Source of the DNA: an uncultured delta proteobacterium
GTDB lineage: Bacteria > Desulfobacterota > RBG-13-43-22
DNA length: 64,000 nt
Direction of reading: 5' to 3'
Assembly: GCA_963838485.1 (NCBI GenBank)
Contig: CAWIRY010000115.1
Location: 2,323-66,322, forward strand
Notes under the pieces: model-generated
What the model was told of the DNA's origin: nothing
Databases searched by the model: none
What the model saw: the letters and a program-made list of their open reading frames with translations, nothing else
In this document: positions 12,201 through 28,107 of the stretch, one piece after another
How the letters are laid out: every line of letters starts with the position of its first letter
How positions within the stretch are numbered: the stretch's first letter is position 1
Program-made: the position numbers and the translations under genes

Positions 12201-12218
12201 CGTTTTTTAATCAACTCC

Positions 12219-13100
12219 CTAATCCTTGAGCAGGTGCTCCTGAATTCTTCCCCAGATTGTTTTAATTTCCGCGCCCAGGCCATTTCGACTCCATTCCAAA
12301 ATGGTTTTCCCCTGGATCATGGCCTCGGTTACCGCCGGATCATAGGGAAGGCTTCCGGCCAGGCCCAGTCCCTTCTCCCGGCAATAGGTTTCAATTTGTC
12401 CGGCCATCTCTTTGTTCAGATCATATTTATTGATCAGAACCATCCCCGGGATTTTGAAATAATTACTCAGACTAAGCACGCGATCCAGGTCATGCAGTCC
12501 CAACAGGGTCGGTTCAGTGACGATCAAAACCCCGTCAGCGCCGGTCAGGGAAGAGATCACCGGACAACCGATGCCCGGAGGGCCATCCACCAGGATCAAA
12601 GGCAGTCCTTTTGCTTCGGCCAGATCCTTTGCTTTACCTCGTATGAGGGCCACCAGCATCCCCGAGTTCTCCTGTCCCACCCCTAACTGGGCATGGACCA
12701 TGGGTCCAAAGCGCGTTTCTGAGACATACCATTCCCCGCAAACCGCCAAAGGAAATTCAATGGCCCCGAAAGAACAAAATTGGACACAGACGCCACAGCC
12801 TTCACAGGAGATCGGGTCAACCTGAAAGTCTTCGCTGATGGCCTCAAAACGGCAGACTTCAAGGCAACGGCCGCAGTCCGTACATAACTCCTGGATAATC
12901 TTCGCCTTGAGGCCCCCCATGAATTCCTCTCGGCTTTTGACTTCAGGCGCGAGCAGCAAGTGTAGATCTGGGGCATCCACATCACAGTCGACCAAAACCT
13001 TGTTAGGGATTAGCGCGGCCAGGGCACCGACCAAACTGGTTTTGCCGGTTCCTCCTTTGCCACTCAAAACACATAATTCTTTTATTTTATTTATAGCCAT
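12219..13100 (-). CDS. MinD/ParA-superfamily P-loop ATPase with an inserted 2x[4Fe-4S] ferredoxin domain.
   Basis: 293 aa with the deviant Walker A SGKGGTGKTS and CTDCGRCLEVC / CEGCGVCVQFC. Confidence 0.8.
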   Translation of the reverse strand: MAINKIKELCVLSGKGGTGKTSLVGALAALIPNKVLVDCDVDAPDLHLLLAPEVKSREEFMGGLKAKIIQELCTDCGRCLEVCRFEAISEDFQVDPISCEGCGVCVQFCSFGAIEFPLAVCGEWYVSETRFGPMVHAQLGVGQENSGMLVALIRGKAKDLAEAKGLPLILVDGPPGIGCPVISSLTGADGVLIVTEPTLLGLHDLDRVLSLSNYFKIPGMVLINKYDLNKEMAGQIETYCREKGLGLAGSLPYDPAVTEAMIQGKTILEWSRNGLGAEIKTIWGRIQEHLLKD

Positions 13101-13112
13101 ACCGTTTTGCCT

Positions 13113-13382
13113 TTATTCAATATAGACGGGTACTGCCTCTTGCTGATTAGAAGCGGTAATGGGGTTTGGGGTTGCATCATGGTTAAAACTCCCGTCCTTT
13201 GACTTCCTTAAGATGTCTTTGTTATGGGGCTCGAAAAGAATTAAATCAAACTCCACTGACTTGAGGAAGGCTATGGCAGTCTCCAATGAAACCGTTGAGT
13301 GTATTAACGATCCTTCCTGAACGATTATATATTGGGCCTGGTAATCAGCATTGATGTGTAAAATTTTAACCGGGTTTCTCAT
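13113..13382 (-). CDS. Hypothetical small protein (degenerate receiver-like?).
   Basis: 89-aa ORF between the two MinD-Fd paralogs; weak REC-like pattern KILHI...FDLILFEP. Confidence 0.3.
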   Translation of the reverse strand: MRNPVKILHINADYQAQYIIVQEGSLIHSTVSLETAIAFLKSVEFDLILFEPHNKDILRKSKDGSFNHDATPNPITASNQQEAVPVYIE

Positions 13383-13419
13383 GGCCCTTCCTTTCTGCTA
13401 ATAAGGACAGCCGTTTCCC

Positions 13420-14283
13420 TTAATGTGTTTCTAAATATTTTTTTATGTGCCTCCTGAGGATTTCATGGAATAACCTCTGAAATTTTTCCTTCCATTCCGG
13501 GTGAATTTCAACGAGTGATTGCCCCAGGGCATAACCCTCGGCTATTTTGCGTTCGAAAGGGATTTCCATCAGCAAAGGAATGTCTTTCGATCGCAAATAT
13601 TTTTGAACCTCCTGGTCTCCCATGTCGGCCCGGTTCAGGATGACCCCAAAAGGAATACCTAAGCTTCCGAGGGCGGCTACGGCCAGCTTCAAATCATAAA
13701 GCCCGAAAGGGGTGGGCTTGGTCACCAGGATCGTATAATCCGACCCTTTAACGGTCTGTATGACCGGGCAGGAGGTGCCCGGCGGGGCATCCAGGATGGC
13801 CAGTACATAATTCTTGATTCGTTTTTTAACCTCCCGGATTAAAGGGGGAGACATGGGCTCCCCAACCCGCAACCGGCCATGGACAAAACGAATGACTCCG
13901 GACCAACCCTCTTCTATCTCTCCCAATTCTTTTTTCCCTGGGTTCAGGGCCTTTGGTTCGCAGACCAGGAAGCACCCTCCGCAGGCATGGCACATTTCCG
14001 GAAAAGTCAGGATCGTTTCCCCGAGCACCAAAATGGCCTTGAACTGGCACAATTGGGAACAGGCCCGGCAGTAGGTGCATTTGGTTTCATCGACCACCGG
14101 GATCTGAGCATAAATCGTCTCTTTATTTTCCCATCGGGGCTTCATGAAGATATGGCCGTTGGGGGCTTCCACATCGCAATCCAGGAGTTGGACCGGTTTC
14201 TGCAAAGAAGTCGCCAGGGCCACGGCCACGCTGGTCTTGCCTGTCCCCCCTTTACCGCTGGCTATACTAATGATCACAGACAT
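13420..14283 (-). CDS. MinD/ParA-superfamily ATPase with ferredoxin insert (paralog of 12219..13100).
   Basis: 287 aa with SGKGGTGKTS and CTYCRACSQLC / CHACGGCFLVC. Confidence 0.8.
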   Translation of the reverse strand: MSVIISIASGKGGTGKTSVAVALATSLQKPVQLLDCDVEAPNGHIFMKPRWENKETIYAQIPVVDETKCTYCRACSQLCQFKAILVLGETILTFPEMCHACGGCFLVCEPKALNPGKKELGEIEEGWSGVIRFVHGRLRVGEPMSPPLIREVKKRIKNYVLAILDAPPGTSCPVIQTVKGSDYTILVTKPTPFGLYDLKLAVAALGSLGIPFGVILNRADMGDQEVQKYLRSKDIPLLMEIPFERKIAEGYALGQSLVEIHPEWKEKFQRLFHEILRRHIKKYLETH

Positions 14284-15557
14284 TGGCTCCGGTAATCAGG
14301 GATTGATTGACATACTGGGCAATCAATTCTTCCGGAGCCAGTTGAGGTGCCCCGGTTAACACCTTGATCCCACTTTCATTAAAGAGACTGACCGCCCTTT
14401 GGCCCATGCCGCCGGCGATGATGAGGTGGACCCCTTTTTCACCCAGCCAGCGGGGCAGGAGACCGGGTTCATGGGGGGGAGGGGTGACCAATACTTTTTG
14501 AATAATGTTTTTCCCTTGTAAATCGATTAAGGCAAACTGTTCGCAATGACCGAAATGATTACAAAGTTTCCCCTCGGCCATGGGAATGGCGATCTTTAAA
14601 CTGTCAAGGGTTGAATTTTTTGAGTCTATCATGGGTAATACCTCCGTTATTAGTTTTTTTATTTCCTTTGGGCTTTGGATTGTCGCCGTTATGATCTTTT
14701 CGATAATGTTATCAAGAGCACCTTTCACCGCAGGTGCCGGGTTATGAAGGAGATAGGCCTGCCCTTGATCCCCTTTTTCCATGAGTTGAATGTCAAAAGG
14801 AATACTTCCTAAGAAAGGGACCTTCATGGAGACGGCCGTGCGTTTCCCCCCGTCTTTTTTAAATATGGCCGATTCCTGACCGCAGTGAGGGCAGATATAG
14901 CCACTCATGTTTTCCACCAATCCCATTATGGGCATATTAACCTGGCGGGCAAAAATTGATGGATTTGCGCACATCGGCCAGGGAGATCTCCTGGGGAGTG
15001 GTTACAATAACCGCCTGGGCTTCCGGGATGGTCTGGGCCACGGTCAGGGGCTCATCCCCCGTTCCCGGTGGGGAATCAATGATCAGGAAATCCAGGTCTC
15101 CCCAGATCACATTGGCAATAAATTGGCGAATAACCCCGATCTTCAGGGGACCGCGCCAGATGGTCGGTGAATCCTTGTCAGGCATCAGCACTTCAATAGA
15201 AATCACCTTTAAGAGGTCATTGACAGGAACCGGATGGATTCCCACATTTTCCTGAATGGGGGCCCGGCCATTAAGCCCGAGCATCCGGGGGATGCTCGGG
15301 CCGTGCAAATCCACATCCATCAGGCCGACCTGATAGCCTTTTAGGGATAGTCCTACGGCTAAATTTACCGCTAAGCTGCTTTTCCCGACTCCGCCTTTGC
15401 CGCTCATGATTAATAATTTATTTTTAATCCGGGACAATGACCTGGCGATGGAGGCATCTTCCGCCCGTTGGGATTCATTTCCCGCTTCCGAACCGTGTCC
15501 ACAACTACTCATAACAGAAACTCCTTTCAATTTTTTTGTTTCAAAATTTTTTTTCAA
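14267..15557 (-). CDS. Mrp/ApbC (NBP35) Fe-S carrier ATPase fused to a C-terminal NifX/NafY-like domain. Apparent 1-nt frameshift in a T5 run at about 14950.
   Basis: ORF 14937..15557 ends ...DVRKSINFCPPG*. ORF 14267..14974 continues ...FARQVNMPIMGLVENMSGYICPHCG..., the Mrp CPHC motif, then ...KIAIPMAEGKLCNHFGHCEQFALIDL...HLIIAGGMGQRAVSLF, which is NifX-like. Deleting one T from aatttttgcc fuses the frames. Confidence 0.7.
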
Positions 15558-15696
15558 AAACCCATTTTTGTTTAAGCCCCGCCAAGGGCGCAGTGAGAGG
15601 TGGCACCTCCATTGGCGGGAATCATCCGGCTTTTGCCGGAAAGATATTTCTTGATCCGTCTTGGCCTTCTCGGCGCATAAGCGACCGGATTAATCT

Positions 15697-15906
15697 CTAT
15701 TCCCGAACCATAGTCGTGCCACATTTGGAACACTTTATGGTATTGCAAGGCACTCCCCGGGAATGGGAACTCTTATTCCCGCATTTAGGGCAGAGACAAT
15801 TACCGCCGGCTCCCATGCCGGTACCTCCACCCATTCCTCCTCGTCCCGATCCAAGACCTCCACCTGGGCCTTTTCCTGCCGGACCTGTGCCATCTCTTCT
15901 GGGCAT
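15697..15906 (-). CDS. Glycine-rich DUF5320-like protein with a C-terminal zinc ribbon.
   Basis: MPRRDGTGPAGKGPGGGLGSGRGG...CLCPKCG...CSKCG. Confidence 0.55.
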   Translation of the reverse strand: MPRRDGTGPAGKGPGGGLGSGRGGMGGGTGMGAGGNCLCPKCGNKSSHSRGVPCNTIKCSKCGTTMVRE

Positions 15907-15918
15907 AATTCCTCCTTT

Positions 15919-16281
15919 TTAACTCCAGTGCCCTTCTACATTATGGGCCTGGGCAAAGTTAACTTTTCCTTGTTTATATTGATTTATAGCTTCTTGCACA
16001 AGACCGGAAACCCCTACGGCCACCTGAACCCCTGCTGCCTTTAAAACCTGGTAGGCCTTGGGGCCGCAATTACCGGTCAGAACAACCTTGGCCCCATGCT
16101 CCACAACCGTCTGGGCCGCCTGAATCCCAGCTCCCTGGGGCAATTGCAGATTCTGCCGATTTTCAATGACTTCTAAGGACAAGGTTTCCGGATCCACGAT
16201 AAGGAAATAGCCTGCCCGGCCGAAACGGGGATCGATTGCGCTATCCAAACTTTTCCCTTTAGAACTAATGGCCAGTTTCAT
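15919..16281 (-). CDS. NifX/NafY-like (dinitrogenase FeMo-cofactor family) domain protein.
   Basis: MKLAISSKGKSLDSAIDPRFGRAGYFLIVD...VVLTGNCGPKAYQVLKAAGVQV. A GGAAGGAG RBS precedes the ATG at 16279-16281. The ORF-track 5' extension overlaps the ferredoxin gene in another frame and is rejected. Confidence 0.7.
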   Translation of the reverse strand: MKLAISSKGKSLDSAIDPRFGRAGYFLIVDPETLSLEVIENRQNLQLPQGAGIQAAQTVVEHGAKVVLTGNCGPKAYQVLKAAGVQVAVGVSGLVQEAINQYKQGKVNFAQAHNVEGHWS

Positions 16282-16333
16282 TTTTTTTAAACTCCTTCCT
16301 GATTGATGACTTAACAATTCAAGCACCGCAAAC

Positions 16334-16519
16334 CTACCCTTCGGTAACGGTAATAGCCCCGGTTTCACAGACCTCGAGACAACTTTCGCAACCGAGACAT
16401 TCGTCTCCATTGACCACCACAGCCTTATTATCTTGTAACTCATAGACCCCCACTGGACAGACATCGACGCAGTTTCCATCACCGACACACTTTTCAGTAT
16501 CCACCGTAACTACAAACAT
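16334..16519 (-). CDS. 2x[4Fe-4S] ferredoxin.
   Basis: 61 aa with CVGDGNCVDVCP and CLGCESCLEVC. Confidence 0.8.
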   Translation of the reverse strand: MFVVTVDTEKCVGDGNCVDVCPVGVYELQDNKAVVVNGDECLGCESCLEVCETGAITVTEG

Positions 16520-16869
16520 TTTCTCTGCCCCCTTCTTCCCTTTCTACCCCGGCAGCAGGGAACCTTTAAATTTCCCTGCAAATATTCTCCGATAATCTGA
16601 TCCACTTCTCCAAAGACGGAAAAAGCCACCTGTATTCCCAAATGATTCAATCCCATCCTGTCCTGATCTCGAATTCCACCGCAAATCAGTTGCCCTATTC
16701 CCAGTTGTCTCAGTAGGATTATTTTTTCATCCGGTAGCCAGTGACTGATATCCAATTCTCTTTTGTCCACCAGCCGGTTCTTTTCAATTTCCAGGATTAT
16801 CATTCTCCTGGCACAGTCCAGCCGTGGAGAGACCCGATCTAAAAAAATGGGGATTGCCACTTTTATCAT
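16510..16869 (-). CDS. NifX/NafY-like domain protein.
   Basis: MIKVAIPIFLDRVSPRLDCARRMIILEIE...QLGIGQLICGGI. Confidence 0.65.
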   Translation of the reverse strand: MIKVAIPIFLDRVSPRLDCARRMIILEIEKNRLVDKRELDISHWLPDEKIILLRQLGIGQLICGGIRDQDRMGLNHLGIQVAFSVFGEVDQIIGEYLQGNLKVPCCRGRKGRRGQRKCL

Positions 16870-17114
16870 TTTTAGCCCTCGGTATTAATATAGTATCAAA
16901 AAATATGCCAAGGGGTCGGTTAGACTGTGGGCTGGTCAGTTTGATGGGATGGTGGAGTCTTTCCCCCGGTAAAAATCAGGACTCAGAAGAGTCTAAGTCT
17001 CCGAAAAAAGGAGATTTCGTATTTTCACGGAATGACAAAAATGGGTTGATTCGGATTTATTAAAAGATACTCAGATTGAAATCGTCTGGCAACAGGCCGG
17101 GTTTTGAAAAGCCA

Positions 17115-17175: not shown

Positions 17176-18505
17176 TTAAGAGAGGTGTTTTAGTTTCCGC
17201 CAGAGGGTCGTCGGGTGGATACCTAATTCCTGGGCGGCCCGGCCGCGATGGCCCCGATATTTTTCAAGGACTTTTTTAATGATTTCTCCTTCCTGGTCTT
17301 TCAGCCTTTGTCCTGAAGGGCGGGGAGACGGGGGATTCTCCTGAGGTCCCTTTTGAAGCTCGGGAGGCAGATGCCCCAATTGAATAACGGAACCATGGCA
17401 GAGTACAAAGGCATGTTCCAGGATATTTTCCAGTTCCCGGATATTACCGGGATAGGCATAGTTCATTAAGACTTCCAGAACCTTTGGGGATACCTGCGCG
17501 ATTTTTTTTCCGGTTTGAATGTTCAATTTTTGGATGAAGTGTTCGATCAAAAGGGGAAGGTCTTCTCGACGCTCTTTCAGGGTAGGCAGGTCTAATTGCA
17601 GCACCTTCAGTCGGTAATACAAGTACATCCCGAAATCGGACGGTCTCGACTAGGCCTTTCAGGTCTTTGTTGGTGGCTGAGATCAGGCGGGCCTTGACCT
17701 GTTTTGTTACATTCGATCCTAAGGGTTCATAACTTTTCTCCTGTAGCACCCTTAACAACTTGGCCTGTATCGATAAAGGTAAGTCTCCGATTTCATCCAA
17801 GAATAAAGTCCCTCCGTCAGCCAGGGCGAATTTCCCTGGTTTGTCTTTTTTGGCATCGGTAAAGGCCCCCCGCACATAGCCGAAAAGTTCGGATTCCAAG
17901 AGGGTCTCGGGAAGGGCGCTGCAATTAATGGCGATAAAGGGTTTATCTCGGCGAGGGCTTAAATGGTGAATGGCCTTGGCCAGGAGTTCTTTTCCTGAGC
18001 CGCTGGGACCTTGAATCAGGACCGTGCTGTCACTCCGTGCGATATCAGGTAGAAGATTGAAAATTTTTTGGAGAGCATCACTTTTCCCAATGATATCACC
18101 TACATTATATTTTTGTCTGATTTCTTTACGGAGGGCTTCGATGGCCGTCAAGTCCCGAAAAGTCTCCACACCGCCCATTACTTTTCCACGACTGTCTTTT
18201 AAGATAGCCGTGGTTATGCTGATGGGAACGACTTTACCCCGGGCATTCAAGATATTGACCGGCAAATCGACGACATTTTTCCCAACCTTCAAGGTCCGGG
18301 CCAAGGCACAGGCTTCCTGGCAGATGTCGGCCTGAAAGATTTCAAAACATTTCTTGCCGATAGCTTTTTCCCGTGAGAATCCGGTTATGGTTTCGGCCGC
18401 CTGATTGAAGGAGGTAATCACCCGATCATTATTTATGGTAAAGACCCCTTCGGTAATACTATCCAGGATGATTTTTAAAAAGGCAGGGGTGGACTTCATG
18501 ATCAT
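17176..18505 (-). CDS. Sigma-54-dependent Fis-family regulator with a PAS domain. Apparent 1-nt frameshift in a G-run near 17630.
   Basis: ORF 17444..18505 reads ...PAS...VLIQGPSGSGKELLAKAIHHLSPRRDKPFIAINC...ESELFGYVRGAFTDA...LISATNKDLKGLVETVRFRD. ORF 17176..17628 continues YLYYRLKVLQLDLPTLKERREDLPLL...AAQELGIHPTTLWRKLKHL, a Fis-type HTH. Confidence 0.85.
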
Positions 18506-18640: not shown

Positions 18641-19984
18641 ATGTTTTTTAAAATCAGTCTTTATTCAGCCTTGATTGTTTTCGGATTCGGGTCGGGTTAC
18701 AAGGTTTTGAGGTGGTTTCAATGCCGGATCGGCGATCAGGCCAAAGGGATCTCGACCGGGGAACGCTTTTCCCAGGCCCTCAGAGGGGTTTTCTCTACAT
18801 TATTTAGCCGAAAATTGTCTCTCCTGGTCAAGATTTGGGTCCTGGAGGTCCTCTTCCAAAAGCAGATAAGCAGAGAAGGTTTTTCCCGTTGGCTCATGCA
18901 CATTTGTATTGCCTATGGATTTTTGTTCCTGCTCCTGATGCACGCCCTGGACCGTTATGTCAGCCAAAAGTTGTTCAGCGGATACGTTGCCACCCTGAAT
19001 CCTTTTCTCTTTCTAAGAAATTTATTCGGGGCCATCCTGTTGATTGGTCTGAGCATCGCTGGATATCGCCGTCTTTTCAACCGGGTTATGCGGCAGACTA
19101 CCCGGGGCATAGATATTTATGCCCTGGTAGTCCTTTCGCTAATAGTTTTTTCCGGGATTTTTTTGGAAGCCACCAAGATTGTTTCCTACCAACGTTATCA
19201 GGAAATGGTTACGGAAAATTCTTCGATATCCGATGAAGGGGAGGCCAGGGCCTTGAAGGCCTATTGGGCCAAGGAATTTGCCGTCGTCTTCCCCCAGACC
19301 CCTCCTGCGGATTCGATAACCTTAAAAAAGGGTCAAGAACTCCATGTCCTTAATTGCGCTTCCTGCCATTCGAAGCCGAGTTCGGCCTTTTTATCTTATG
19401 GACTGGCCAAAGCGATCGGACCAGCAGCAGCCCTGGTGGTGGGTCAAAGCAGTGTCAGGAACTTCCTGTGGTATTTCCATTTCCTGGTTTGCTTTATCGG
19501 CTTGGCCTTACTTCCCTTTACAAAATTTTTTCATCTTTTGACCAGTCCCCTGGTGCTTCTGATAAACGGGGTGATGGACCGGGCTACGGCCCTGCCGGCC
19601 AATATCGCCACCGTTCAGGCCATCGAACTGGACGCCTGCACCCATTGCGCCACCTGCACACTGCATTGTTCGGTGAGGCCGATCTTTCAGCACATCCCCA
19701 ATCTGACCATTTTGCCCTCGGAAAGATTAGCCGCTTTTAAGTCCATGGTTTTTCAAAAAGAGACCGCTTCCAATGAACTTACCCGTTGCCAGGAAGGGGC
19801 TTCCATTTGTACCAACTGCTTTAATTGCACCCAACGCTGTCCCGTGGGGATAGTGGCCAGGAATTGTGGTTTTGCCTGCGGGATGATCTTCAGCATCTGG
19901 GTTGCCCTGATCTGTTCGTCTCCACCCGTGATAGGCATGTGGCCAGGTTCGATCAAGATAAGACCAAGGTCCTTACTCCTTTGA
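18641..19984 (+). CDS. HdrE/DsrM/NarI-like membrane b-type cytochrome domain fused to a 2x[4Fe-4S] ferredoxin domain.
   Basis: Polytopic N-terminus with conserved His pairs, then CTHCATCTLHCS...CTNCFNCTQRCP. The C-terminal 45 aa are of uncertain reading. Confidence 0.6.
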   Translation: MFFKISLYSALIVFGFGSGYKVLRWFQCRIGDQAKGISTGERFSQALRGVFSTLFSRKLSLLVKIWVLEVLFQKQISREGFSRWLMHICIAYGFLFLLLMHALDRYVSQKLFSGYVATLNPFLFLRNLFGAILLIGLSIAGYRRLFNRVMRQTTRGIDIYALVVLSLIVFSGIFLEATKIVSYQRYQEMVTENSSISDEGEARALKAYWAKEFAVVFPQTPPADSITLKKGQELHVLNCASCHSKPSSAFLSYGLAKAIGPAAALVVGQSSVRNFLWYFHFLVCFIGLALLPFTKFFHLLTSPLVLLINGVMDRATALPANIATVQAIELDACTHCATCTLHCSVRPIFQHIPNLTILPSERLAAFKSMVFQKETASNELTRCQEGASICTNCFNCTQRCPVGIVARNCGFACGMIFSIWVALICSSPPVIGMWPGSIKIRPRSLLL

Positions 19985-20316
19985 GCCTAAAGCGTAAGGC
20001 CTTTAGGAATGATGTCTATCTTTCCTTCCAGGGTAATACCTTTAATAGCTGTTATGAATGCGTGACTTGCACGAACACCTGCCCGGTGGTCGTCAATTAT
20101 AAAAATCCCACGGAGGAACTGGGGTTACTTCCCCATCAAATTATGCACAGTTTGAAATTCGGTTTTCAGGAACATATCCTGGGGCCGGGGATGGTCTGGG
20201 AGTGCCTGGGTTGCTATAATTGTCAGGAAAGCTGCCCTCAGGGGGTTCGGGTAACGGATATCCTTTTTGAACTTAAAAATGAGGCCTTTCAACAGGCCGG
20301 AAATCTCAAGGCTTAA
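19981..20316 (+). CDS. HdrC-like 2x[4Fe-4S] protein. Start assigned to the TTG overlapping the upstream stop (TTGA); uncertain.
   Basis: ...CYECVTCTNTCPV...WECLGCYNCQESCPQG. Confidence 0.5.
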   Translation: MSLKRKAFRNDVYLSFQGNTFNSCYECVTCTNTCPVVVNYKNPTEELGLLPHQIMHSLKFGFQEHILGPGMVWECLGCYNCQESCPQGVRVTDILFELKNEAFQQAGNLKA

Positions 20317-20331
20317 AGAGGTAAATTATCA

Positions 20332-21123
20332 ATGCAAATGATTTTGTTTCCGGGCTGCAAAGTCCCTTACTATGTCCCTTCTTATGAGACCTCCAGTCGA
20401 ATGGTTTTAGAAAAATTCGGGATTGAATTAATGGATGTCGAACTGAACTGTTGTGGATACCCCATCCGTTTTCTGGATTTCAAGGCCTTTATTTTCTCTT
20501 CGGCCCGAAATATCGCCCTGGTCGGCGAAAGAGGCTTGCCTTTGCTGTGCCTTTGTAAGTGTTGCTACGGCACCTTGCGGTATGCGGATTTTCTTTTAAG
20601 AAAAAATGAGGCCCTTTTGAAAGAAGTCAACGAGGTATTAAAAGAAGAAGGACTCCGGTATCCTTCCAGGATAGAAATTAAGCATCTTTTAAGTGTTTTT
20701 TTTGAGGACATTGACCCGACCAATATCTGGAAAAAAAATACCCGACCTTTTCAAAATCTTAAAGTGGCCGCCCATTATGGGTGTCATATCCTGCGCCCCC
20801 GGGATGTGGTGCGATTTGATAACCCCGTTAAGCCCGACAGGTTTGAGACCTTGATAGATGTAACCGGAGCCATCAGTGTGGATTGGTCGCTGAGGACTCA
20901 ATGTTGCGGGGAGCCTTTATGGGGGAAAAATAATACATTGGCCCTGCAACTGACCAAGAAAAAAATAGCCAGCGCTAAACAAGCGGAGGCTGATGTGCTT
21001 TGCGTGGGCTGCACTCATTGTCAAATGCAATTTGAGAGAGTACGGGAAATGACGAGAAATGAAGATGACAAAAATCAGAGTTTACCATCCATCTTTTATC
21101 CCAACTGTTGGGACTCAGCTTAG
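20332..21123 (+). CDS. HdrB-like protein with two CCG domains.
   Basis: 263 aa with NCCGYP...CxxC and QCCGEP...CVGCTHC. Confidence 0.8.
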   Translation: MQMILFPGCKVPYYVPSYETSSRMVLEKFGIELMDVELNCCGYPIRFLDFKAFIFSSARNIALVGERGLPLLCLCKCCYGTLRYADFLLRKNEALLKEVNEVLKEEGLRYPSRIEIKHLLSVFFEDIDPTNIWKKNTRPFQNLKVAAHYGCHILRPRDVVRFDNPVKPDRFETLIDVTGAISVDWSLRTQCCGEPLWGKNNTLALQLTKKKIASAKQAEADVLCVGCTHCQMQFERVREMTRNEDDKNQSLPSIFYPNCWDSA

Positions 21124-21213
21124 GCTTGGAGGGCCAGGTCCTGGGAATTGACAAGAAGGTGTTGGATCTGATAGAATCGAGAAATTCCGCTGTTTAAAAC
21201 ATTTGGATGAAAT

Positions 21214-21504
21214 TTAAGCCGGGCCGATAACCCAGTTCTGGATCAAAGAGAGCGTCAGTACCCGGTAATTTTTAAAGACTTTCCCCAGTTCTTCATACTT
21301 GACCTTGGCCAGGGGCGGATACATCATCAGGATCAGGCCGATGGCGATGGGGAGATTGGTCGTATCATATTGGAAGAGATTCCAGAACTGAACTACCTTG
21401 GGATAGAGATAGCCGGACCCTACACCCACCAGCATGGCCAAAAAGATCCACAGGGTCAGAAAACGGTCCAGAAAGGAAAGTTTTTTAGGAGTCGTTTCGG
21501 GCAT
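21214..21504 (-). pseudogene. 5'-terminal fragment (96 codons) of an ACR3 arsenite efflux gene; truncated duplicate of 34474..35565.
   Basis: [25 protein letters not shown]... is about 95% identical to the N-terminus of the full-length copy. Homology to the second copy ends at about 21222. Confidence 0.75.
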
Positions 21505-22879: not shown

Positions 22880-23512
22880 TCACTTTACAAATGACCGCAT
22901 GCAGGCAATAGCTGGCTGGAAATTTTTAGAAGGAAATGACTCAAATTCATAATAACCTTCTCCCTGGCAGGTCAGGCATGGTGTCCCCTGTTTGACCGGA
23001 TAGGCTTCATAGCAGACCGGGCAAATTTGGATCTCTCCTTTTTTATTTTTTTCGTAATACCGAGTGATTTGAACCGGTGCCGAATTTAACATCCTTCTGC
23101 CGGCTGTCAAAATATCTTGAACCAATACAGATAAGGGAAGCTCTTTTTTATCCACCAGACGCATATACCAATTATAAACCTTAGGAAAGGCGGAAAGCCT
23201 TCTGAGATCCATCCAGACCCTATATCCCTGAAGACTTTTTTTATTGTAAAGACTCAAAGCAAATTTATCCCAATCCAGGATCTTCATCCAGCCGTTGCCA
23301 CAGGTGCAGGGGGTGAAGAGTTGGACCGCATCGGGCAGGCAGTGAATCGTTTCTACTATGGCATCGGCCTCCAGTTCACTACCCAATAATTCCTGTGCCC
23401 AATCGACCATAAAACCGCCAATGACCACACCCGGGGCGGCCCAACCATGAAATTTTTCAATTGTTTTAATAAAATCTTCTAATGTCCTTCCACAAATGGT
23501 TTCTTTTTCCAT
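22880..23512 (-). CDS. FmdE/FwdE-family protein with a C-terminal zinc ribbon.
   Basis: 210 aa, ...HGWAAPGVVIGGFMV...CPVCYE...CLTCQGEG. Confidence 0.65.
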   Translation of the reverse strand: MEKETICGRTLEDFIKTIEKFHGWAAPGVVIGGFMVDWAQELLGSELEADAIVETIHCLPDAVQLFTPCTCGNGWMKILDWDKFALSLYNKKSLQGYRVWMDLRRLSAFPKVYNWYMRLVDKKELPLSVLVQDILTAGRRMLNSAPVQITRYYEKNKKGEIQICPVCYEAYPVKQGTPCLTCQGEGYYEFESFPSKNFQPAIACMRSFVK

Positions 23513-23775: not shown

Positions 23776-26700
23776 TTAAACAGGAACTACGTTCACCCGG
23801 GTATTGGAAAAAGAGGCACTGCCGCCGATTGGGTCGGTCAAGCAGACATCCTTTAACAACGGGTCCACGGCCATGATATGGTTAACACAGATCCCCGTAG
23901 CCCGACGGCGGTCCCCAGAAATTTTGTGGCCATCGACCACCACATCATTGGACCCATAGGCCCAGTGACCGTAGTGCCAGGACACGGCCAGGGTCCCCGG
24001 ACGAATCCCTTCAACGATATTGACCCGTGCGATCATAGGCACCAGCCGGTTTTCTCCGTCTTTCAACTCTAACTTCCCGCTGGGATTGTCCACCGAAACC
24101 AACCGCACTCGTTGGTCCTGTTTAATGCCGATTTTTAAGGCATCTTCCCGATGAATCAGGATCTTGTTCTCCGGCCTCAAGGCGATGTTGCTCCAGTAGT
24201 TGGAGATGGTCCGGGAGTGACCGCCGAAGGCCTCTTTATAGGTGATGATCTTAAACGGATATTCTTGACCCCGCTTTAGGGGTTTACCGGCAGAATCGAA
24301 TTCCCCGCCAATAAATGGGACACCACTGAAATATGTCCCGCTGAGGCTGTTTTTTTGGGAAGCCACTTCCTCCACGAAGAGGTGAAACATGCTATTCAGG
24401 GCACTTTTCATTTTATCGCCCTCATAGGCTTGGCTGAAATCTGCAAACCGCCCCCCGCGGTTGAGGACATAAACGACTTTCCGCCATTCATTCTCTGACC
24501 GCAGGGCTTGCTTCCAACGCTTTTCGTTAAAAACAGAAAGGGGCAGATGTCGTCTGGCCTTTTGAAAGAGGGCCATTTCGGCGGCATCGGCTTCAGGGAC
24601 ATCCTCGCCGCCCTTATCTCCAAAGGCAATATTGGCCACTTCTTTAAGATACCAGTCCTCCGGCCGGGTGAATGGTATCCCCTTACCAAAGGCGTCCTGG
24701 CCGAATCCGGAGAGCTTCATCCGGGTTCCCACGGCAATTAAAAATGTTTCCATGCAGATAGGCATCCGTTCACCGTTCACCTCCACTTCTTCGGTGAAGG
24801 GTATGGCCACGGGTTGTCGTACCTTGCCTACTTTGGTGGGCACATCCGGCGTATCGTGTGGCATTCCCCACCGTTCCAGATAGGTCAGATCCGGGACAAT
24901 GTAGTCTGCATACATGGAGGTCTCGCCGATGACAATATCACTGGCAATGAAGAGCGGTACCCGGGCCGGATCCTTGAGCATGTCAATGATATGTTGGGTC
25001 CCGCCGGGTATAGAAAGGGCCGGAGTGCCCATGTGAAGGAAAAGGATTTTCCCGGCATAGGGATATCCGGCTGTGAAGGAGGGGATGACCTCCTGGTAAA
25101 CATTGCCGGTAAAGGGATACCAGGGCCGCTTGGCCGGGTAGCCATGTTCTTTGAAAAGGGTGAAATCTTCATACCGGCTCTTCTCACGAGTAATCCTAGG
25201 CCCAAAGGCTTTAAGAGGTCCGGAATGCATATTCTCCAATGGATAGATACTGTCTGGTTTATCTCCAACCTCATGCCAAGAGCCGCCCCCCTTACTGAGG
25301 CCCCCTTTATAATCGGCATTGCCGATGAGGACATTTAAAGTAATGATCAGACAACCGTTATAATATCCGTCTGTCTGCTGTACCGGTCCCCGATACATCT
25401 CCACCACAGACCTCTTTCCGTGAGAGGTGAACTCCCTGGCCACTTCGATGATGGTCATGATATCCACTCCGCTTTCTTCGGCATACTCCTTTAACGTGCG
25501 GGCCATGGCCTGTTCGGTCAGGAGTTGAAAGGCGCTCTTCACGGACAGGCCTTTCACCTGGGTCTTGACCAGGAGATCTCCTTCTATCGGTTTATTTTCA
25601 TCTTCCGGATCTACGGCAATCAGCCGGCCTGCGCGGGAGACTACCCTCTGTTTGGCTGTGCCGATGCCCGCTTCATCGGCCTTCAACAAGGCTATGGGGT
25701 GTCCTTCTACGATCTTTACCAAGTGGCTGGCGTTGGTCCAGGTCGGTTCATCGTCGGCCTTGGCAGCCCCCTTGTTGGCGTTTTCCAGGTACCGTTGGTC
25801 ATAACGGTTATTTTCCAGTATCCATCGAATCATGGCCATAGCCAAGGCCCCGTGGCCATTGGGTTGGACTGGAAGCCACCAGTTGGCCTTACCGGCATCG
25901 TTGGAGAGCCGTGCATCCACCACCGCGGTCTTCAGACCCCGGTGAAGTTTTCCGGTGGTGACCTTCTCGGCCATGGTCACCAGGCTGAAGTTGGCTGTAA
26001 AAGCCCCGGTTCCCCAGAAAATAACAAACTCGGCGTTAGCCAGGTCGGGTTTCATGTGGTTAGTTTTATGTCCGGTCATCAGGTCATAGGCGATGTGGTG
26101 AGACTGCTCACAAATAGTGGTATGTTCATAATGATTCTTCGATCCAAGGGATAATTCGGTAAACCATTTCATTAATTGGGCACGGCCTGGTTGAATGCGG
26201 CCAGCCAGGAAGACGAAGCCGTTATTTTTCGGTCCGAGATCCGGATGTTCAGGATCAATAAGCTGATCCAGATGTTCTCGATACTTTTTCTTAAATTCAA
26301 CAACACTCAATTCCCCCTTGCCACACTTCTGGGCATCTTCAGCCATTTTTTTTGATAACTCGACATCCCTCATGGCCACTACCTCGTCAAATCCCGGGTA
26401 TGGGCGGCTGTCTCCTGCCTCGGCGAACAACTTGCCTCCGCGGACGACTTCTTCTATGAATTGGTTAAAAGGGATGCTCTGCCACTTATTGGACCCTCGT
26501 TCGCCGGCTCGTTTAAGTACCTTTCGAATCCGGTAGGGATCGTAATAGGTTTGGATACCGGCCTGCCCCTTGGCGCACAGCTTCCCGTCAATAGTCGCCG
26601 CATCCTGGGGGCGGGTCTTATAAGGAATATGGGGGAGAAAAGTCTGAGGGCTGTAAGGACTCCCCGTCAACTTGGCCAGGGTTCCGTCCCAGATTTTGGC

Positions 26701-26952
26701 CTTGATCTGGCAGGATACATGGCATTGGAGGCAGGTGGTATAAATCTGGTTTTGGGGCTGGGCCAGCTCGTATGCGCCCTGGCTGTCTGCCTCTTTGGTC
26801 TCGGTCAGGCCTCCAAAAATTTTGCTTGCCTGAGCGGCCAGGATGGCACATCCCCCCACAAAGGCTGTTGACTGGATCAATTGACGACGAGTAATTCCTT
26901 TTTGCTCGTTTTTCTTGTTTTCTACAGATCGTTGGTCATGTTTGACGCGCAT
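23776..26952 (-). CDS. ttrA: Molybdopterin (bis-MGD) oxidoreductase catalytic subunit, TtrA-like, with a Tat signal.
   Basis: 1058 aa with TRRQLIQSTAFVGGCAILAA (Tat) and CLQCHVSCQ (an N-terminal [4Fe-4S] motif). The size and the B-C-A gene order match tetrathionate reductase. Confidence 0.65.
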   Translation of the reverse strand: MRVKHDQRSVENKKNEQKGITRRQLIQSTAFVGGCAILAAQASKIFGGLTETKEADSQGAYELAQPQNQIYTTCLQCHVSCQIKAKIWDGTLAKLTGSPYSPQTFLPHIPYKTRPQDAATIDGKLCAKGQAGIQTYYDPYRIRKVLKRAGERGSNKWQSIPFNQFIEEVVRGGKLFAEAGDSRPYPGFDEVVAMRDVELSKKMAEDAQKCGKGELSVVEFKKKYREHLDQLIDPEHPDLGPKNNGFVFLAGRIQPGRAQLMKWFTELSLGSKNHYEHTTICEQSHHIAYDLMTGHKTNHMKPDLANAEFVIFWGTGAFTANFSLVTMAEKVTTGKLHRGLKTAVVDARLSNDAGKANWWLPVQPNGHGALAMAMIRWILENNRYDQRYLENANKGAAKADDEPTWTNASHLVKIVEGHPIALLKADEAGIGTAKQRVVSRAGRLIAVDPEDENKPIEGDLLVKTQVKGLSVKSAFQLLTEQAMARTLKEYAEESGVDIMTIIEVAREFTSHGKRSVVEMYRGPVQQTDGYYNGCLIITLNVLIGNADYKGGLSKGGGSWHEVGDKPDSIYPLENMHSGPLKAFGPRITREKSRYEDFTLFKEHGYPAKRPWYPFTGNVYQEVIPSFTAGYPYAGKILFLHMGTPALSIPGGTQHIIDMLKDPARVPLFIASDIVIGETSMYADYIVPDLTYLERWGMPHDTPDVPTKVGKVRQPVAIPFTEEVEVNGERMPICMETFLIAVGTRMKLSGFGQDAFGKGIPFTRPEDWYLKEVANIAFGDKGGEDVPEADAAEMALFQKARRHLPLSVFNEKRWKQALRSENEWRKVVYVLNRGGRFADFSQAYEGDKMKSALNSMFHLFVEEVASQKNSLSGTYFSGVPFIGGEFDSAGKPLKRGQEYPFKIITYKEAFGGHSRTISNYWSNIALRPENKILIHREDALKIGIKQDQRVRLVSVDNPSGKLELKDGENRLVPMIARVNIVEGIRPGTLAVSWHYGHWAYGSNDVVVDGHKISGDRRRATGICVNHIMAVDPLLKDVCLTDPIGGSASFSNTRVNVVPV

Positions 26953-26955
26953 GGG

Positions 26956-28107
26956 TTAATTTCCTCCCTCATTGACAGATTTTGTTGAAAGGATTGGCAG
27001 AAACCGGATGCCCAGATAAAAGAGGGCGATAAATAGGGCCACAGCGAAGGCAAAGACCGACCATTCATGGATCGATGGGAAGTATACGAACTTGAGCCGG
27101 TTATCCGAATAGGCCTCCTGAAGTCCCTTCATGGCCGGGGTTACTTGGCCAGGGATCACCTGGTTCAGGCGAACCGCGAAGTGGGCCACGGCAATCAGCA
27201 GGCCAGCCCATCCGGCATTCAGACGGTTTGCTGGCTTCCGTATCAGCATCACCAATGGAATGATGATTCCGGCCAGAAGGTGAACGATCCAAAAGACGTA
27301 CCAATAGGAACCGAAGAGGATGGACCAGAGCACCGTATAGGTTCTATCCCTTCCATACCACATGGTTACCGAAAATTCCGACCACTCCAGAATGATTACC
27401 AGGAAGAGCAGGCCTACGACTGACCGACTCAAGAGGGATAGGGTCTCCCGGTCCTTGGAAGAATCCGTGAAACAGAAAAAGGCTGCGACAGCTAAGATCA
27501 AGGCAAGGCCGGAAGACAAACCATCGCCAATAGAGAGGACCGGGCCGAGGGAGGTGTGCCAATAGGGACTGGATATCAGGGTGGCGAATTCAGCACCGTT
27601 GCCGCCGGAGAAGATGATGGCCAGGCCCATACCGATCCAGCCGAGGCGGCGGTAGGTCTTGGTTGCTAAGGGATAGGGTTTTATTTCCATGGCCAGGATT
27701 ATGGCGATATAGGCCAAGTAGCCCATCGAAATCCAACTGGAGATGGTCAACAGGGAGAAAAAGTTGGGCCGAAAAAAGACCTCCTGCAGTCGCCACATAT
27801 GCCCCAGGTCGAAGGAGATGATCGTAAGCCCAACCACCAGGTTGACCAGGGACAGCCACAGGGCGGGACGTACCAGGCCACGGAATCGCTCAATTTGAAA
27901 GGCATAACAAACCCAGGCAAAAAAGGAAACCCCCTCTGCCAGGCCGATAAAATAGATTTTTGCGGAAACCCATAATCCCCAGGGGACGTAGCTGCCGTAA
28001 TCGGCGAGCAGATGACCATATATCATCCGCTGCATTACACCGAAAAGGCCCCAGATCATCAGGGCGACCCAGGCAATACCGATGACTTTTTTTTGCGTTT
28101 TTGTCAT
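26956..28107 (-). CDS. ttrC: NrfD/PsrC-family membrane anchor (TtrC-like).
   Basis: 383 aa, polytopic, lying between the Fe-S and catalytic subunit genes. Confidence 0.65.
   Translation of the reverse strand: MTKTQKKVIGIAWVALMIWGLFGVMQRMIYGHLLADYGSYVPWGLWVSAKIYFIGLAEGVSFFAWVCYAFQIERFRGLVRPALWLSLVNLVVGLTIISFDLGHMWRLQEVFFRPNFFSLLTISSWISMGYLAYIAIILAMEIKPYPLATKTYRRLGWIGMGLAIIFSGGNGAEFATLISSPYWHTSLGPVLSIGDGLSSGLALILAVAAFFCFTDSSKDRETLSLLSRSVVGLLFLVIILEWSEFSVTMWYGRDRTYTVLWSILFGSYWYVFWIVHLLAGIIIPLVMLIRKPANRLNAGWAGLLIAVAHFAVRLNQVIPGQVTPAMKGLQEAYSDNRLKFVYFPSIHEWSVFAFAVALFIALFYLGIRFLPILSTKSVNEGGN

What the first reader, a model, noticed from the sequence alone, without database searches (positions are those of the whole stretch)
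18641..21123. Split HdrE-ferredoxin / HdrC / HdrB-like membrane-bound oxidoreductase divergent from a sigma-54 regulator
A NarI/HdrE-like di-heme membrane domain is fused to a two-cluster ferredoxin. It is followed by an HdrC-like protein and then an HdrB-like protein with two CCG domains. Together these give a DsrMK/HdrDE-type quinone:thiol-disulfide module, but with an unusual domain split: the membrane domain is N-terminal to the Fe-S domain, the opposite of QmoC. The second gene appears to start at a TTG overlapping the first stop (TTGA). The same TTGA coupling is seen at the metY/metX junction.
Basis: partly seen in the sequence, partly recalled or inferred. Interest (0 to 1): 0.5.

Follow-up and report, generated by a model that had tools for sequence, protein, structure and literature searches.

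The report
Frameshifted membrane cytochrome–HdrC fusion plus HdrB
The reported three-gene "split" comes from a single missing base: the locus is really two genes, a membrane cytochrome fused to two iron-sulfur domains plus an HdrB-like partner, and the family is uncharacterised and has a likely built-in c-type heme site.

Summary
The three-gene split and the TTGA coupling are not real.

- **Split:** every relative examined encodes one 557-583 aa protein: the 120 best protein hits and 80 genome loci. The window lacks one C in a C-run at 19857-19858. Restoring it gives CPVGIVAQELWFCLRDDL, as in orthologs.
- **More frameshifts:** the HdrB-like gene (C-run at 21100-21102; true end 21197), the sigma-54 regulator, a ParA/NifX-like gene, metY (twice) and hslU are also frameshifted. 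dN/dS stays near 0.15 across the break. Consensus errors or very recent lesions are therefore the likely cause.
- **True unit:** two genes. The first has a NarI-type five-helix domain with four conserved heme-b histidines, then two 2x[4Fe-4S] domains, the second HdrC-like. The second is an HdrB-like protein with all ten non-cubane-cluster cysteines.
- **Membrane domain first:** this order is normal for HdrF/EMO/EtfD proteins.
- **New observation:** the outward-facing loop between helices 4 and 5 carries a family-wide CxxCH plus a conserved Met. A profile of the loop alone hits only c-type cytochromes in the PDB (best E=3e-5).
- **Status:** the family is unnamed and seen only in uncultured Thermodesulfobacteriota. 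In distant relatives the fusion sits where hdrC sits in the neighbouring soluble set of a MetF/MetV-HdrB-HdrA-MvhD gene cluster.

The parts
18641..20316 (+). One gene (558 aa after repair): NarI-like membrane cytochrome domain, ferredoxin domain 1, linker, then HdrC-like ferredoxin domain 2. In the window it is broken by a 1-nt deletion.
   Evidence: The 120 best protein hits are 410-622 aa; 109 of them are 553-622 aa and cover 98-100% of the repaired protein, and the shorter ones are partial proteins, mostly on 2-5 kb contigs. All 80 genome loci give one contiguous tblastn match. Alignment A1. Pfam and NCBIfam results.
19853..19858 (+). Frameshift site: GTGGCC^AGG, with one C missing after 19858 (CCC in relatives, CC here).
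   Evidence: Indel list against L001 and L002. Restoring the C gives CPVGIVAQELWFCLRDDL, which matches orthologs.
19859..19984 (+). Out-of-frame tail of ORF1 (42 codons plus TGA). It contains the chance 'TTGA' at 19981-19984 and is not coding in this frame.
   Evidence: The orthologs conserve the other frame here. dN/dS in that frame is 0.12-0.21.
18899..18943 (+). Helix 2 with His87 (18899-18901) and His101 (18941-18943), the predicted ligands of the proximal and distal heme b.
   Evidence: Invariant in 74 sequences. Present in 61 and 62 of 63 distant representatives.
19478..19534 (+). Helix 5 with His280 (19478-19480) and His298 (19532-19534). The spacing is 18 residues, as between H233 and H251 in SaEMO and, from memory, between H187 and H205 in NarI.
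   Evidence: Present in 63 of 63 representatives. EMO ligand positions come from the paper read. NarI numbering is from my own knowledge.
19205..19369 (+). Core of the outward-facing loop between helices 4 and 5. It carries Met189 (19205-19207) and C239-A-S-C242-H243 (19355-19369), a predicted covalent heme c site.
   Evidence: CxxCH is present in 78 of 78 full-length genome-locus members, with 25 different middle-residue pairs. C239, C242, H243 and M189 are each present in 62 of 63 representatives. The loop profile hits only c-type cytochromes in the PDB, best E=3.1e-5. Family-mean net charge of the loop is -3.7, against +5.0 and +4.6 for the cytoplasmic loops.
19613..19855 (+). Ferredoxin domain 1, with Cys motifs CTHCATCTLHC and CTNCFNCTQRCP (2x[4Fe-4S]).
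   Evidence: Pfam Fer4_8. The Cys residues are conserved.
20032..20244 (+). Ferredoxin domain 2, HdrC-like, with motifs CYECVTCTNTCP and CLGCYNCQESCP (2x[4Fe-4S]).
   Evidence: PDB HdrC chains match at E=3e-17. TIGR03290 gives 62.8 bits and the QmoC model 64.7 bits, both below their cutoffs.
20332..21197 (+). HdrB-like gene (288 aa after repair) with two CCG/non-cubane-cluster domains. One C is missing from the run at 21100-21102.
   Evidence: All ten cluster Cys align with HdrB 8rvv_B, E=4e-44. This gene lies immediately downstream in 72 of the 80 loci.
17176..18505 (-). Divergent PAS plus sigma-54 activator (440 aa in relatives), itself split by a 1-nt insertion near 17626.

Best explanation
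The locus holds two genes, not three.

**Gene 1 (18641-20316)** encodes one 558-aa protein. It has a five-helix NarI-type membrane domain with four histidines for two b hemes. The long outward-facing loop between helices 4 and 5 carries a CxxCH plus Met site, which probably binds a c-type heme covalently. Two cytoplasmic 2x[4Fe-4S] ferredoxin domains follow, and the second is HdrC-like.

**Gene 2 (20332-21197)** encodes an HdrB-like protein with both non-cubane [4Fe-4S] sites.

The apparent split of gene 1 and the early stop of gene 2 are each caused by one base missing from a C-run. These are most likely consensus errors in the assembly. A very recent inactivating mutation is the less likely alternative.

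**Inferred mechanism.** Electrons enter at the outer face of the membrane, from menaquinol at the distal heme b and/or from a periplasmic cytochrome through the built-in heme c. They then pass through heme b(distal), heme b(proximal), four cubane clusters and the two non-cubane clusters of HdrB. There a cytoplasmic disulfide or sulfane substrate would be reduced. A DsrC-type protein is one candidate but is not shown. The chain could also run in reverse.

Shown here: the gene structure, the conservation of cofactor ligands and the fold class. Inferred: heme c binding, the electron partners, the substrate and the direction of flow.
For: **Single gene**
- All 80 genome loci give one contiguous match.
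- The junction in orthologs reads CPVGIV(A/S)Q(D/E)LWFCL.
- Against two relatives of 89-92% identity, the window has a 1-nt gap at 19855-19859 and another at 21100.

**Error-like pattern**
- The 78-aa gene, the ParA/NifX-like gene, the sigma-54 regulator and metY (twice) are also frameshifted. So is hslU.
- dN/dS is 0.15 over the repaired gene, including across the break. The two intact relatives give 0.165 against each other.

**Cofactors**
- The His, Cys and Met ligands are conserved.
- The HdrB Cys residues align with solved HdrB.
- The AF2 model has pLDDT 82.9. Its best PDB fold matches are EtfD 9OJN (E=8e-5), HdrC chains, and NarI (TM-score 0.49-0.54 normalised to NarI).
- The loop profile hits only c-type cytochromes.

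**Topology**
- Family-mean net charges are +5.0 and +4.6 for loops 1 and 3, and -0.1 and -3.7 for loops 2 and 4.
- This matches the five-helix, N-terminus-out, C-terminus-in topology of EMO.
Against: - No reads are available, so a sequencing error cannot be told apart from a real, very recent mutation.
- Only 5 of the 8 single-base indels listed lie in homopolymers.
- Heme c binding rests on sequence alone. Pfam cytochrome c models reach only E=0.06-0.14 on the window's loop.
- The conserved Met lies upstream of CxxCH, unlike in classical class I cytochromes c.
- No substrate or partner gene is conserved next to the pair in the window's clade.
- In EMO the homologous non-cubane clusters only relay electrons, so HdrB here need not be catalytic.
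Confidence: 0.8

Rival explanations
1. The frameshifts are real. The organism carries recently inactivated pseudogenes of the fusion gene and of hdrB, for example in a lineage undergoing genome decay.
For: At least eight single-base frame changes fall in seven conserved genes within about 50 kb. Three of the eight indels listed are not in homopolymers. There is also a gene fragment and a synteny break directly after hdrB at 21190-21504.
Against: dN/dS shows no relaxation of selection (0.15). The affected genes include housekeeping ones such as metY and hslU. Both lesions in this operon are contractions of C-runs, which is a typical base-calling error.
Confidence: 0.13
2. One reading: a genuine three-gene module in which the HdrC-like protein is translated separately from a TTG that overlaps the upstream stop (TTGA coupling).
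For: The ORFs and the TTGA exist as described.
Against: No ortholog is split in this way among the 120 best protein hits or the 80 genome loci. The break falls inside ferredoxin domain 1, directly after the last Cys-Pro of its second cluster motif and before the conserved helix ELWFCLRDDL. The 42-residue ORF1 tail has no counterpart in any ortholog. The TTG is an internal Leu codon.
Confidence: 0.03
3. The function differs: the pair is a membrane anchor and electron relay for a larger HdrA-containing complex. HdrB would act only as a wire, and no disulfide would be reduced.
For: In distant relatives (45-50% identity) the pair sits in the order MetV, fusion, HdrB, HdrA-like, MvhD, MetF, next to a soluble MetV-MetF-HdrC-HdrB-HdrA-MvhD set. 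In other distant loci it sits next to HdrA-like, NuoE-, NuoF- and FdhA-like genes. In EMO the homologous clusters only relay electrons.
Against: In the window's own clade (57-91% identity) no hdrA, mvhD or metF gene is adjacent. All ten HdrB cluster cysteines are retained, including the one that EMO has lost.
Confidence: 0.25
4. The conserved CxxCH is not a heme c site. It would instead be a periplasmic thiol/disulfide or metal-binding motif, and the module would be a plain quinol-dependent di-heme b enzyme like DsrMK or HdrED.
For: There is no biochemical evidence for heme c. Pfam cytochrome c models do not reach significance on the single window sequence.
Against: C, C and H are conserved in 62 of 63 representatives while the two middle residues vary freely, with 25 variants. 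A conserved Met is available as the sixth ligand. The loop profile retrieves only c-type cytochromes, aligned on the helix plus CxxCH, best E=3.1e-5. The loop is predicted to face outward, where heme attachment takes place.
Confidence: 0.25

Closest known systems
EMO / EtfD / HdrF (ETF:(methyl)menaquinone oxidoreductase; PDB 9OJN; HdrF1-3 of Desulfobacterium autotrophicum)
   Same: It has an N-terminal five-helix NarI-type heme b domain followed by an HdrC-like 2x[4Fe-4S] domain and HdrB-type non-cubane clusters, in the same order and with the same topology. EtfD is the best fold match (E=8e-5). The proximal and distal His on helix 5 are 18 residues apart, as in SaEMO (H233 and H251). Rare family members of 711-716 aa carry fused CCG domains, giving exactly this architecture.
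   Different: Here HdrB is a separate polypeptide, there is a second ferredoxin domain (four cubane clusters rather than two), and the loop between helices 4 and 5 carries a conserved CxxCH plus Met. No etfAB or glpAB genes are adjacent. All ten HdrB cysteines are kept, whereas EMO has replaced one.
HdrED of Methanosarcina and DsrMK(JOP) of sulfate reducers
   Same: A NarI-type cytochrome b is linked to an HdrC/HdrB-type catalytic unit that reduces a disulfide or trisulfide in the cytoplasm. In DsrMKJOP, the cytochrome b DsrM receives electrons from the periplasmic heme c protein DsrJ, which is the arrangement proposed here within a single polypeptide.
   Different: In HdrD and DsrK the ferredoxin and CCG parts are fused, and the membrane subunit is separate. 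DsrK has only one non-cubane cluster, whereas this protein has two. No NCBIfam model of these families comes near its cutoff: HmcF 19.6 against 750, TmcB 16.7 against 735.
QmoC
   Same: An HdrC-like ferredoxin domain and an HdrE/NarI-like membrane domain sit in one protein. The QmoC model matches the C-terminal ferredoxin domain.
   Different: The domain order is reversed, there is only one ferredoxin domain, and Qmo has no HdrB partner. The score is 64.7 bits against a cutoff of 300, and the match covers only model positions 12-96.
Soluble HdrABC and the MetFV-HdrABC-MvhD complex
   Same: The HdrB-like subunit aligns over its full length with solved HdrB (E=4e-44). Ferredoxin domain 2 aligns with solved HdrC (E=3e-17). 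In distant relatives, the fusion sits where hdrC sits in the neighbouring soluble set of such a gene cluster.
   Different: This module is membrane-anchored through a cytochrome domain. In the window's clade there is no adjacent hdrA, mvhD or metF. TIGR03288 (HdrB) scores 211.8 against a cutoff of 345.

Membership tests
NarI-type di-heme cytochrome b (PF02665) | A Pfam match above the gathering score and a NarI-like fold | tested here: met
   PF02665 scores 29.8 bits on the window ORF and 38.2 bits on P0001, against a cutoff of 22.9. The match is partial. Foldseek against NarI 1Q16_C gives TM-score 0.54 normalised to NarI. TIGR00351 narI scores 23.5 against a cutoff of 105.55, so this is not NarI itself.
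NarI-type di-heme cytochrome b (PF02665) | Two His on helix 2 and two His on helix 5 as axial ligands of two b hemes | tested here: met
   H87, H101, H280 and H298 are invariant in 74 sequences and present in 61-63 of 63 distant representatives. Actual heme binding cannot be tested here.
HdrB (CoB-CoM heterodisulfide reductase subunit B) | Two CCG domains with ten Cys that bind two non-cubane [4Fe-4S] clusters | tested here: met
   All ten Cys align with 8rvv_B and 5odc_B. PF02754 matches twice.
HdrB (CoB-CoM heterodisulfide reductase subunit B) | The equivalog model cutoff (TIGR03288) | tested here: not met
   211.8 bits against a cutoff of 345.15. The protein is HdrB-like, not the methanogen enzyme.
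HdrED / DsrMK | A separate membrane cytochrome b subunit plus one cytoplasmic subunit that fuses the ferredoxin and CCG domains | tested here: not met
   Here the ferredoxin domains are fused to the membrane domain, and the CCG protein is separate.
DsrK | A single non-cubane cluster site | tested here: not met
   Both sites are complete here. The DsrK feature is taken from the paper read.
QmoC | N-terminal HdrC-like domain, C-terminal membrane domain, and the equivalog cutoff | tested here: not met
   The order is reversed, and NF038018 scores 64.7 bits against a cutoff of 300.
EMO / EtfD / HdrF | A single polypeptide in the order membrane domain, HdrC-like domain, CCG domains | tested here: not met
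   In 72 of 80 loci the CCG protein is a separate gene directly downstream. Only rare variants of 711-716 aa are fused.
EMO / EtfD / HdrF | Genomic association with etfAB or glpAB | tested here: not met
   These genes were not seen next to the pair in the window, L001, L002, L083, L084 or L085.
c-type cytochrome (class I-like heme attachment) | A CxxCH motif in an extracytoplasmic segment with a conserved distal ligand | tested here: met
   CxxCH is present in 78 of 78 and 62 of 63 members, and M189 in 62 of 63. The loop has net negative charge and is predicted to face outward. The loop profile hits only c-type cytochromes, best E=3.1e-5.
c-type cytochrome (class I-like heme attachment) | Covalently bound heme | not testable with these tools
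   This needs heme staining, mass spectrometry or a solved structure.
Translationally coupled overlapping genes (TTGA) | The downstream start codon is a real start that is conserved in orthologs | tested here: not met
   The TTG at 19981 is an internal Leu codon of a continuous ORF in all orthologs.

The most novel reading that the evidence does not exclude
The family is a previously undescribed type of respiratory membrane module. A NarI-type di-heme b cytochrome has acquired its own periplasmic c-type heme, giving three hemes in one polypeptide, and is hard-wired through four cubane clusters to an HdrB-type site. This would let uncultured Thermodesulfobacteriota exchange electrons directly between periplasmic cytochromes or quinol and cytoplasmic Hdr chemistry. 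In the distant clade it would also tie a MetFV-HdrAB-MvhD methylene-tetrahydrofolate reductase to the membrane, a possible answer to how that step of the Wood-Ljungdahl pathway is coupled to energy conservation.
Probability: 0.4. Interest if true: 0.7.

Novelty: new variant of a known kind. Interest (0 to 1): 0.4.

Why it matters
**For the scan.** The feature that made this finding look unusual is an artefact. The window carries about one frameshift per few kilobases.

**For biology.** Heterodisulfide-reductase-type modules anchored by NarI-like cytochromes are central to energy conservation in methanogens (HdrED), sulfate reducers (DsrMK) and syntrophs (EMO). The repaired locus belongs to an unnamed family with thousands of metagenomic members and no cultured representative among the hits listed. 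It combines those parts in a different way and adds a probable c-type heme on the outer face.

If the heme is real, this would be a compact route from the periplasmic cytochrome pool to cytoplasmic Hdr chemistry. In related genomes it would give a membrane link for the methylene-tetrahydrofolate reductase complex.

Tried and rejected
- **Source of the window.** An exact-sequence look-up of the window's HdrB-like ORF found no record. The best genome match is 88% identical, so reads or the source assembly could not be traced.
- **Sigma-54 promoter.** A strict GG-N10-GC scan found nothing upstream of the fusion gene in the window, L001, L002, L004 or L084. A TGGCAT-N5-TTGAT element lies instead upstream of the 119-aa gene on the other side of the regulator. 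The idea that the divergent regulator controls this operon therefore has no support.
- **Named families.** No NCBIfam model passes its cutoff.
- **Pfam cytochrome c models.** On the single window loop they reach only E=0.06-0.14. The family profile against PDB sequences was needed to reach significance.
- **AlphaFold database fold search.** The library was not available.
- **Literature.** Searches for a NarI plus HdrC fusion with CxxCH found nothing describing this architecture. PMC10553843 mentions a different heme-c/CCG protein next to HdrA in HotSeep-1, and I could not compare it.
- **Programmed frameshifting.** Rejected, because every ortholog is in a single frame.
- **Selenocysteine read-through of the TGA at 19982.** Rejected, because that TGA is not in the conserved frame.
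- **Multiheme cytochrome partner.** None is encoded in the window.
- **Model coordinates.** They are not returned, so heme-ligand geometry, including the M189-H243 distance, could not be measured.
Full report
**1. What is in the sequence**

Their Pfam content matches the description. ORF1 hits Nitrate_red_gam (PF02665, 29.8 bits against a cutoff of 22.9, partial match) plus a 4Fe-4S dicluster domain. ORF2 hits a 4Fe-4S dicluster domain. ORF3 hits two CCG stretches.

ORF1 and ORF2 overlap by 160 nt in different frames. The last 42 residues of ORF1 (VARNCGFACGMIFS...) and the first 10 or so of ORF2 look non-native, while the other frame across the overlap reads ...QELWFCLRDDLQHLGCPD.

**2. The split is a frameshift**

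I joined the two frames conceptually and searched a 5.8-billion-protein collection. The 120 best hits (47-91% identity) are all single proteins. Of these, 109 are 553-622 aa long and cover 98-100% of the joined query. The shorter hits are partial proteins, mostly on 2-5 kb contigs.

A scan of one genome per species found at least 470 relatives. The best 80 each give one contiguous tblastn match over residues 1 to about 555. At the junction the orthologs read CPVGIV(A/S)Q(D/E)LWFCLRDDL.

Two contigs with 89-92% nucleotide identity and the same gene order were fetched as L001 and L002. Against both, the window has a single-base gap at 19855-19859, where the relatives have GCCCAGG or TCCCAAG and the window has GCCAGG. 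Adding one C after 19858 restores a 558-aa ORF that reads CPVGIVAQELWFCLRDDL.

The break falls directly after the last Cys-Pro of the second cluster motif of the first ferredoxin domain. It lies in front of a conserved helix with invariant W410 and L417, so it is inside a domain and not in a linker. The 'TTGA' at 19981-19984 is an internal Leu codon followed by an out-of-frame TGA (T-P-L-S-L-K in orthologs).

**3. The window is full of such lesions**

The HdrB-like ORF is also truncated. Relatives have TATCCCCAACTG and the window has TATCCCAACTG (gap at 21100). Repair gives a 288-aa protein ending ...YPQLLGLSLGLEGQVLGIDKKVLDLIESRNSAV at 21197, against 290 aa in the relatives.

I ran tblastn of the relatives' proteins against the window. 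It shows frame changes in these genes:

| Gene | Approximate position |
|---|---|
| 78-aa gene | 11640 |
| ParA/NifX-like gene, 414 aa | 14950 |
| Sigma-54 activator, 440 aa | 17625 |
| Fusion gene | 19856 |
| HdrB-like gene | 21100 |
| metY (two changes) | 32983 and 32675 |

hslU is also split, with the AAA_2 profile broken at position 102/103 (60584-60753). The 1058-aa molybdopterin enzyme and its NrfD partner are intact.

dN/dS of the repaired fusion gene against L001 and L002 is 0.15. In the 43 codons just after the break it is 0.12-0.21. The two intact relatives give 0.165 against each other. There is no sign of decay.

Both lesions in this operon are contractions of C-runs. Base-calling or consensus error is the most economical explanation, at about 0.85. 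Very recent real mutations cannot be excluded without reads. The source assembly is not in the searchable collections.

**4. What the repaired unit is**

*Gene 1, membrane domain.* The AF2 model of the 91%-identical ortholog P0001 (pLDDT 82.9) has long helices at 2-27, 81-111, 123-146, 156-181 and 269-310. Family-mean net charges are +5.0 and +4.6 for loops 1 and 3, and -0.1 and -3.7 for loops 2 and 4. This gives a topology with the N-terminus outside and the C-terminus inside, as in NarI and EMO. It also agrees with the cytoplasmic Fe-S domains at the C-terminus.

H87 and H101 lie on helix 2. H280 and H298 lie on helix 5, 18 residues apart, as H233 and H251 are in SaEMO and, from my own knowledge, H187 and H205 in NarI. 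All four are invariant in 74 sequences. They are present in 61-63 of 63 representatives at the 50%-identity level, which share only 31-47% identity with the window's membrane domain. The di-heme b reading stands.

*Gene 1, iron-sulfur domains.* Two CxxCxxCxxxC(P/S) pairs lie at residues 333-343 and 390-400, and two more at 471-481 and 522-532, giving four cubane clusters. The second domain is HdrC-like: solved HdrC chains match at E=3e-17, TIGR03290 scores 62.8 bits and the QmoC model 64.7 bits, both far below their cutoffs.

*Gene 2.* It aligns over its full length with solved HdrB (E=4e-44), and all ten cysteines of the two non-cubane clusters are in register. It scores 211.8 bits on TIGR03288, against a cutoff of 345. 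An HdrB-like gene lies immediately downstream of the fusion gene in 72 of the 80 loci.

*Fold.* The best PDB fold match of the fusion protein is Mycobacterium smegmatis EtfD/EMO (9OJN, E=8e-5). HdrC chains and NarI follow (TM-score 0.49-0.54 normalised to NarI).

**5.

The 90-residue loop between helices 4 and 5 contains NCASCH (C239, C242, H243; window 19355-19369). CxxCH is present at this place in all 78 full-length family members from the genome loci, with 25 different middle-residue pairs. It is present in 62 of 63 distant representatives. M189 (62 of 63) and W209 (61 of 63) are conserved in the same loop. These positions are therefore as conserved as the heme b ligands.

A profile built from the loop alone (A4, 92 positions) was searched against all PDB sequences. 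The 60 best matches are c-type cytochromes or cytochrome c-bearing subunits. The best are the flavocytochrome c heme subunit 3vrd_A (E=3.1e-5) and CcoP (E=1.6e-4). The alignments printed for the top three matches cover the helix that precedes CxxCH and the motif itself. The loop is predicted to face the periplasm, where heme c is attached.

I infer a covalently bound, His/Met-ligated heme c sitting next to the distal heme b. This is an inference. No coordinates or biochemistry were available to test it.

**6. Context**

In the window and its nearest relatives the pair stands alone. A PAS plus sigma-54 activator (L001, L002, L084) and/or a universal stress protein (L083, L084) lies upstream. 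L083 has no activator gene next to the pair, but it has further HdrD-like genes downstream.

I found no -24/-12 element in front of the fusion gene. A conserved TGGCAT-N5-TTGAT element lies at about 16895-16910 on the minus strand, in front of the gene cluster downstream of the regulator. The regulator therefore more likely serves that cluster.

In distant relatives (45-50% identity) the pair is embedded in larger clusters. L085 has the order MetV-like (PF12225), fusion, HdrB, HdrA-like (1016 aa), MvhD (FlpD), MetF (MTHFR). Beside it lies a soluble paralogous set, MetV-MetF-HdrC-HdrB-HdrA-MvhD. In about 30 of the 80 loci an HdrA-like gene follows the pair, and in smaller subsets NuoE-, NuoF- and FdhA-like genes follow as well. 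In those genomes the fusion sits where hdrC sits in the soluble set. It may therefore act as a membrane-anchored HdrC.

Three representatives of 711-716 aa have the same membrane domain with CxxCH, one ferredoxin domain and fused CCG domains. This is the HdrF/EMO architecture.

**7. How it most likely works**

Electrons would pass between the outer face of the membrane and the cytoplasm. At the outer face the donor would be menaquinol at the distal heme b and/or a periplasmic cytochrome acting through the built-in heme c. The path would then run through heme b(distal), heme b(proximal), four cubane clusters and the two non-cubane clusters of HdrB, where a disulfide or sulfane substrate would be reduced or oxidised.

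The parallel is DsrMKJOP, where the heme c protein DsrJ feeds the cytochrome b DsrM and then DsrK. HdrED and EMO are further parallels. The substrate is unknown. A DsrC-type protein is a reasonable guess for a Thermodesulfobacteriota organism, but nothing here shows it. A pure relay role, as in EMO and perhaps in the distant clade, is the main functional rival.

**8. Comparison with known families and novelty**

The module works like HdrED, DsrMK and EMO, but it fails the architecture tests for each of them and for QmoC (see the membership table). No NCBIfam model names it.

The 240 listed hits, taken from about 933 and 2,993 scoring proteins in two searches, carry only generic names and come from metagenomes or MAGs of Thermodesulfobacteriota, formerly 'Deltaproteobacteria'. 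The membrane domain defines 433 clusters at 50% identity. My literature searches found no description of this architecture. PMC10553843 mentions a different heme-c/CCG protein next to HdrA in HotSeep-1.

I rate the repaired module as a new variant of a known kind.

**9. Verdict**

The headline feature, an unusual split with TTGA coupling, is an artefact. The underlying two-gene module is real and conserved, and it is moderately interesting because of the probable built-in heme c and its link to Hdr/MetF complexes in related genomes. Interest: 0.4.

Noticed in passing
window 11640, 14948, 17626, 19858, 21100, 32675, 32984 and 60584-60753: Single-base frame changes relative to close relatives occur in at least seven conserved genes: a 78-aa gene, a ParA/NifX-like gene, the sigma-54 activator, the fusion gene, the HdrB-like gene, metY (twice) and hslU. 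The window's consensus is unreliable for indels.
   Followed up: yes
window 31986-31995 (metY/metX junction): The window has an extra T at 31994 relative to both relatives, right at the metY stop / metX start. In L001 the overlap is TTGAGTGA, whereas in the window metY ends at the TGA inside TTGA.
   Followed up: partly
window 21190-21504: Synteny with L001 and L002 ends at 21190, just before the repaired hdrB stop codon at 21195-21197. A 96-aa N-terminal fragment of an SBF/ACR3-type transporter follows (21214-21504, minus strand). It is 95.6% identical to part of a 360-aa gene elsewhere on L002 (15192-15461). In the relatives metW/metX/metY follow directly, while in the window they lie at 30220-33254. 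This is either a rearrangement or an assembly join.
   Followed up: partly
window about 16895-16910, minus strand: A conserved sigma-54-type element is present: TGGCAT-N5-TTGAT in the window and L001, and TGGCATCTTTATTGCT in L002. It lies 25-40 nt upstream of the 119-aa gene at 16510-16869, downstream of the activator gene. It is the likely target of the divergent regulator, rather than the hdr-like operon.
   Followed up: partly
L085 1-21683; also L039, L034, L074, L062: In relatives of 45-50% identity the pair lies within the order MetV-like, fusion, HdrB, HdrA-like, MvhD, MetF, next to a soluble paralogous MetV-MetF-HdrC-HdrB-HdrA-MvhD set. In other loci it lies next to HdrA-like, NuoE-, NuoF- and FdhA-like genes. 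This suggests a membrane-anchored form of the methylene-tetrahydrofolate reductase/Hdr complex.
   Followed up: partly
proteins P0128, P0141, P0230 (711-716 aa): These carry the same membrane domain with the CxxCH loop, followed by one ferredoxin domain and two fused CCG domains (the HdrF/EMO-like order). They link this family to the single-polypeptide enzymes.
   Followed up: no
alignment A1, proteins P0006, P0007, P0057 (residue 396 of the repaired protein): Some members have Gly in place of the third Cys of the second cluster motif of ferredoxin domain 1 (CYRGTQ). This suggests a [3Fe-4S] or otherwise altered cluster in those lineages.
   Followed up: no
window 23776-29094, minus strand: An intact cluster encodes a 1058-aa molybdopterin oxidoreductase, an NrfD-type membrane protein (383 aa) and a 4Fe-4S protein (324 aa). 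An FmdE-like gene lies at 22880-23512. The cluster is syntenic with L001. The N-terminus of the large protein contains an RRQLIQS motif that looks like a twin-arginine export signal; no signal-peptide tool was run.
   Followed up: no
window 11300-16869, minus strand: A conserved cluster downstream of the sigma-54 activator encodes NifX/NifB-like (Nitro_FeMo-Co) proteins, ParA/MinD-type ATPases with ferredoxin domains, a small ferredoxin and a NifU_N protein. It is shared with L001 and L002, and its function is unclear.
   Followed up: no
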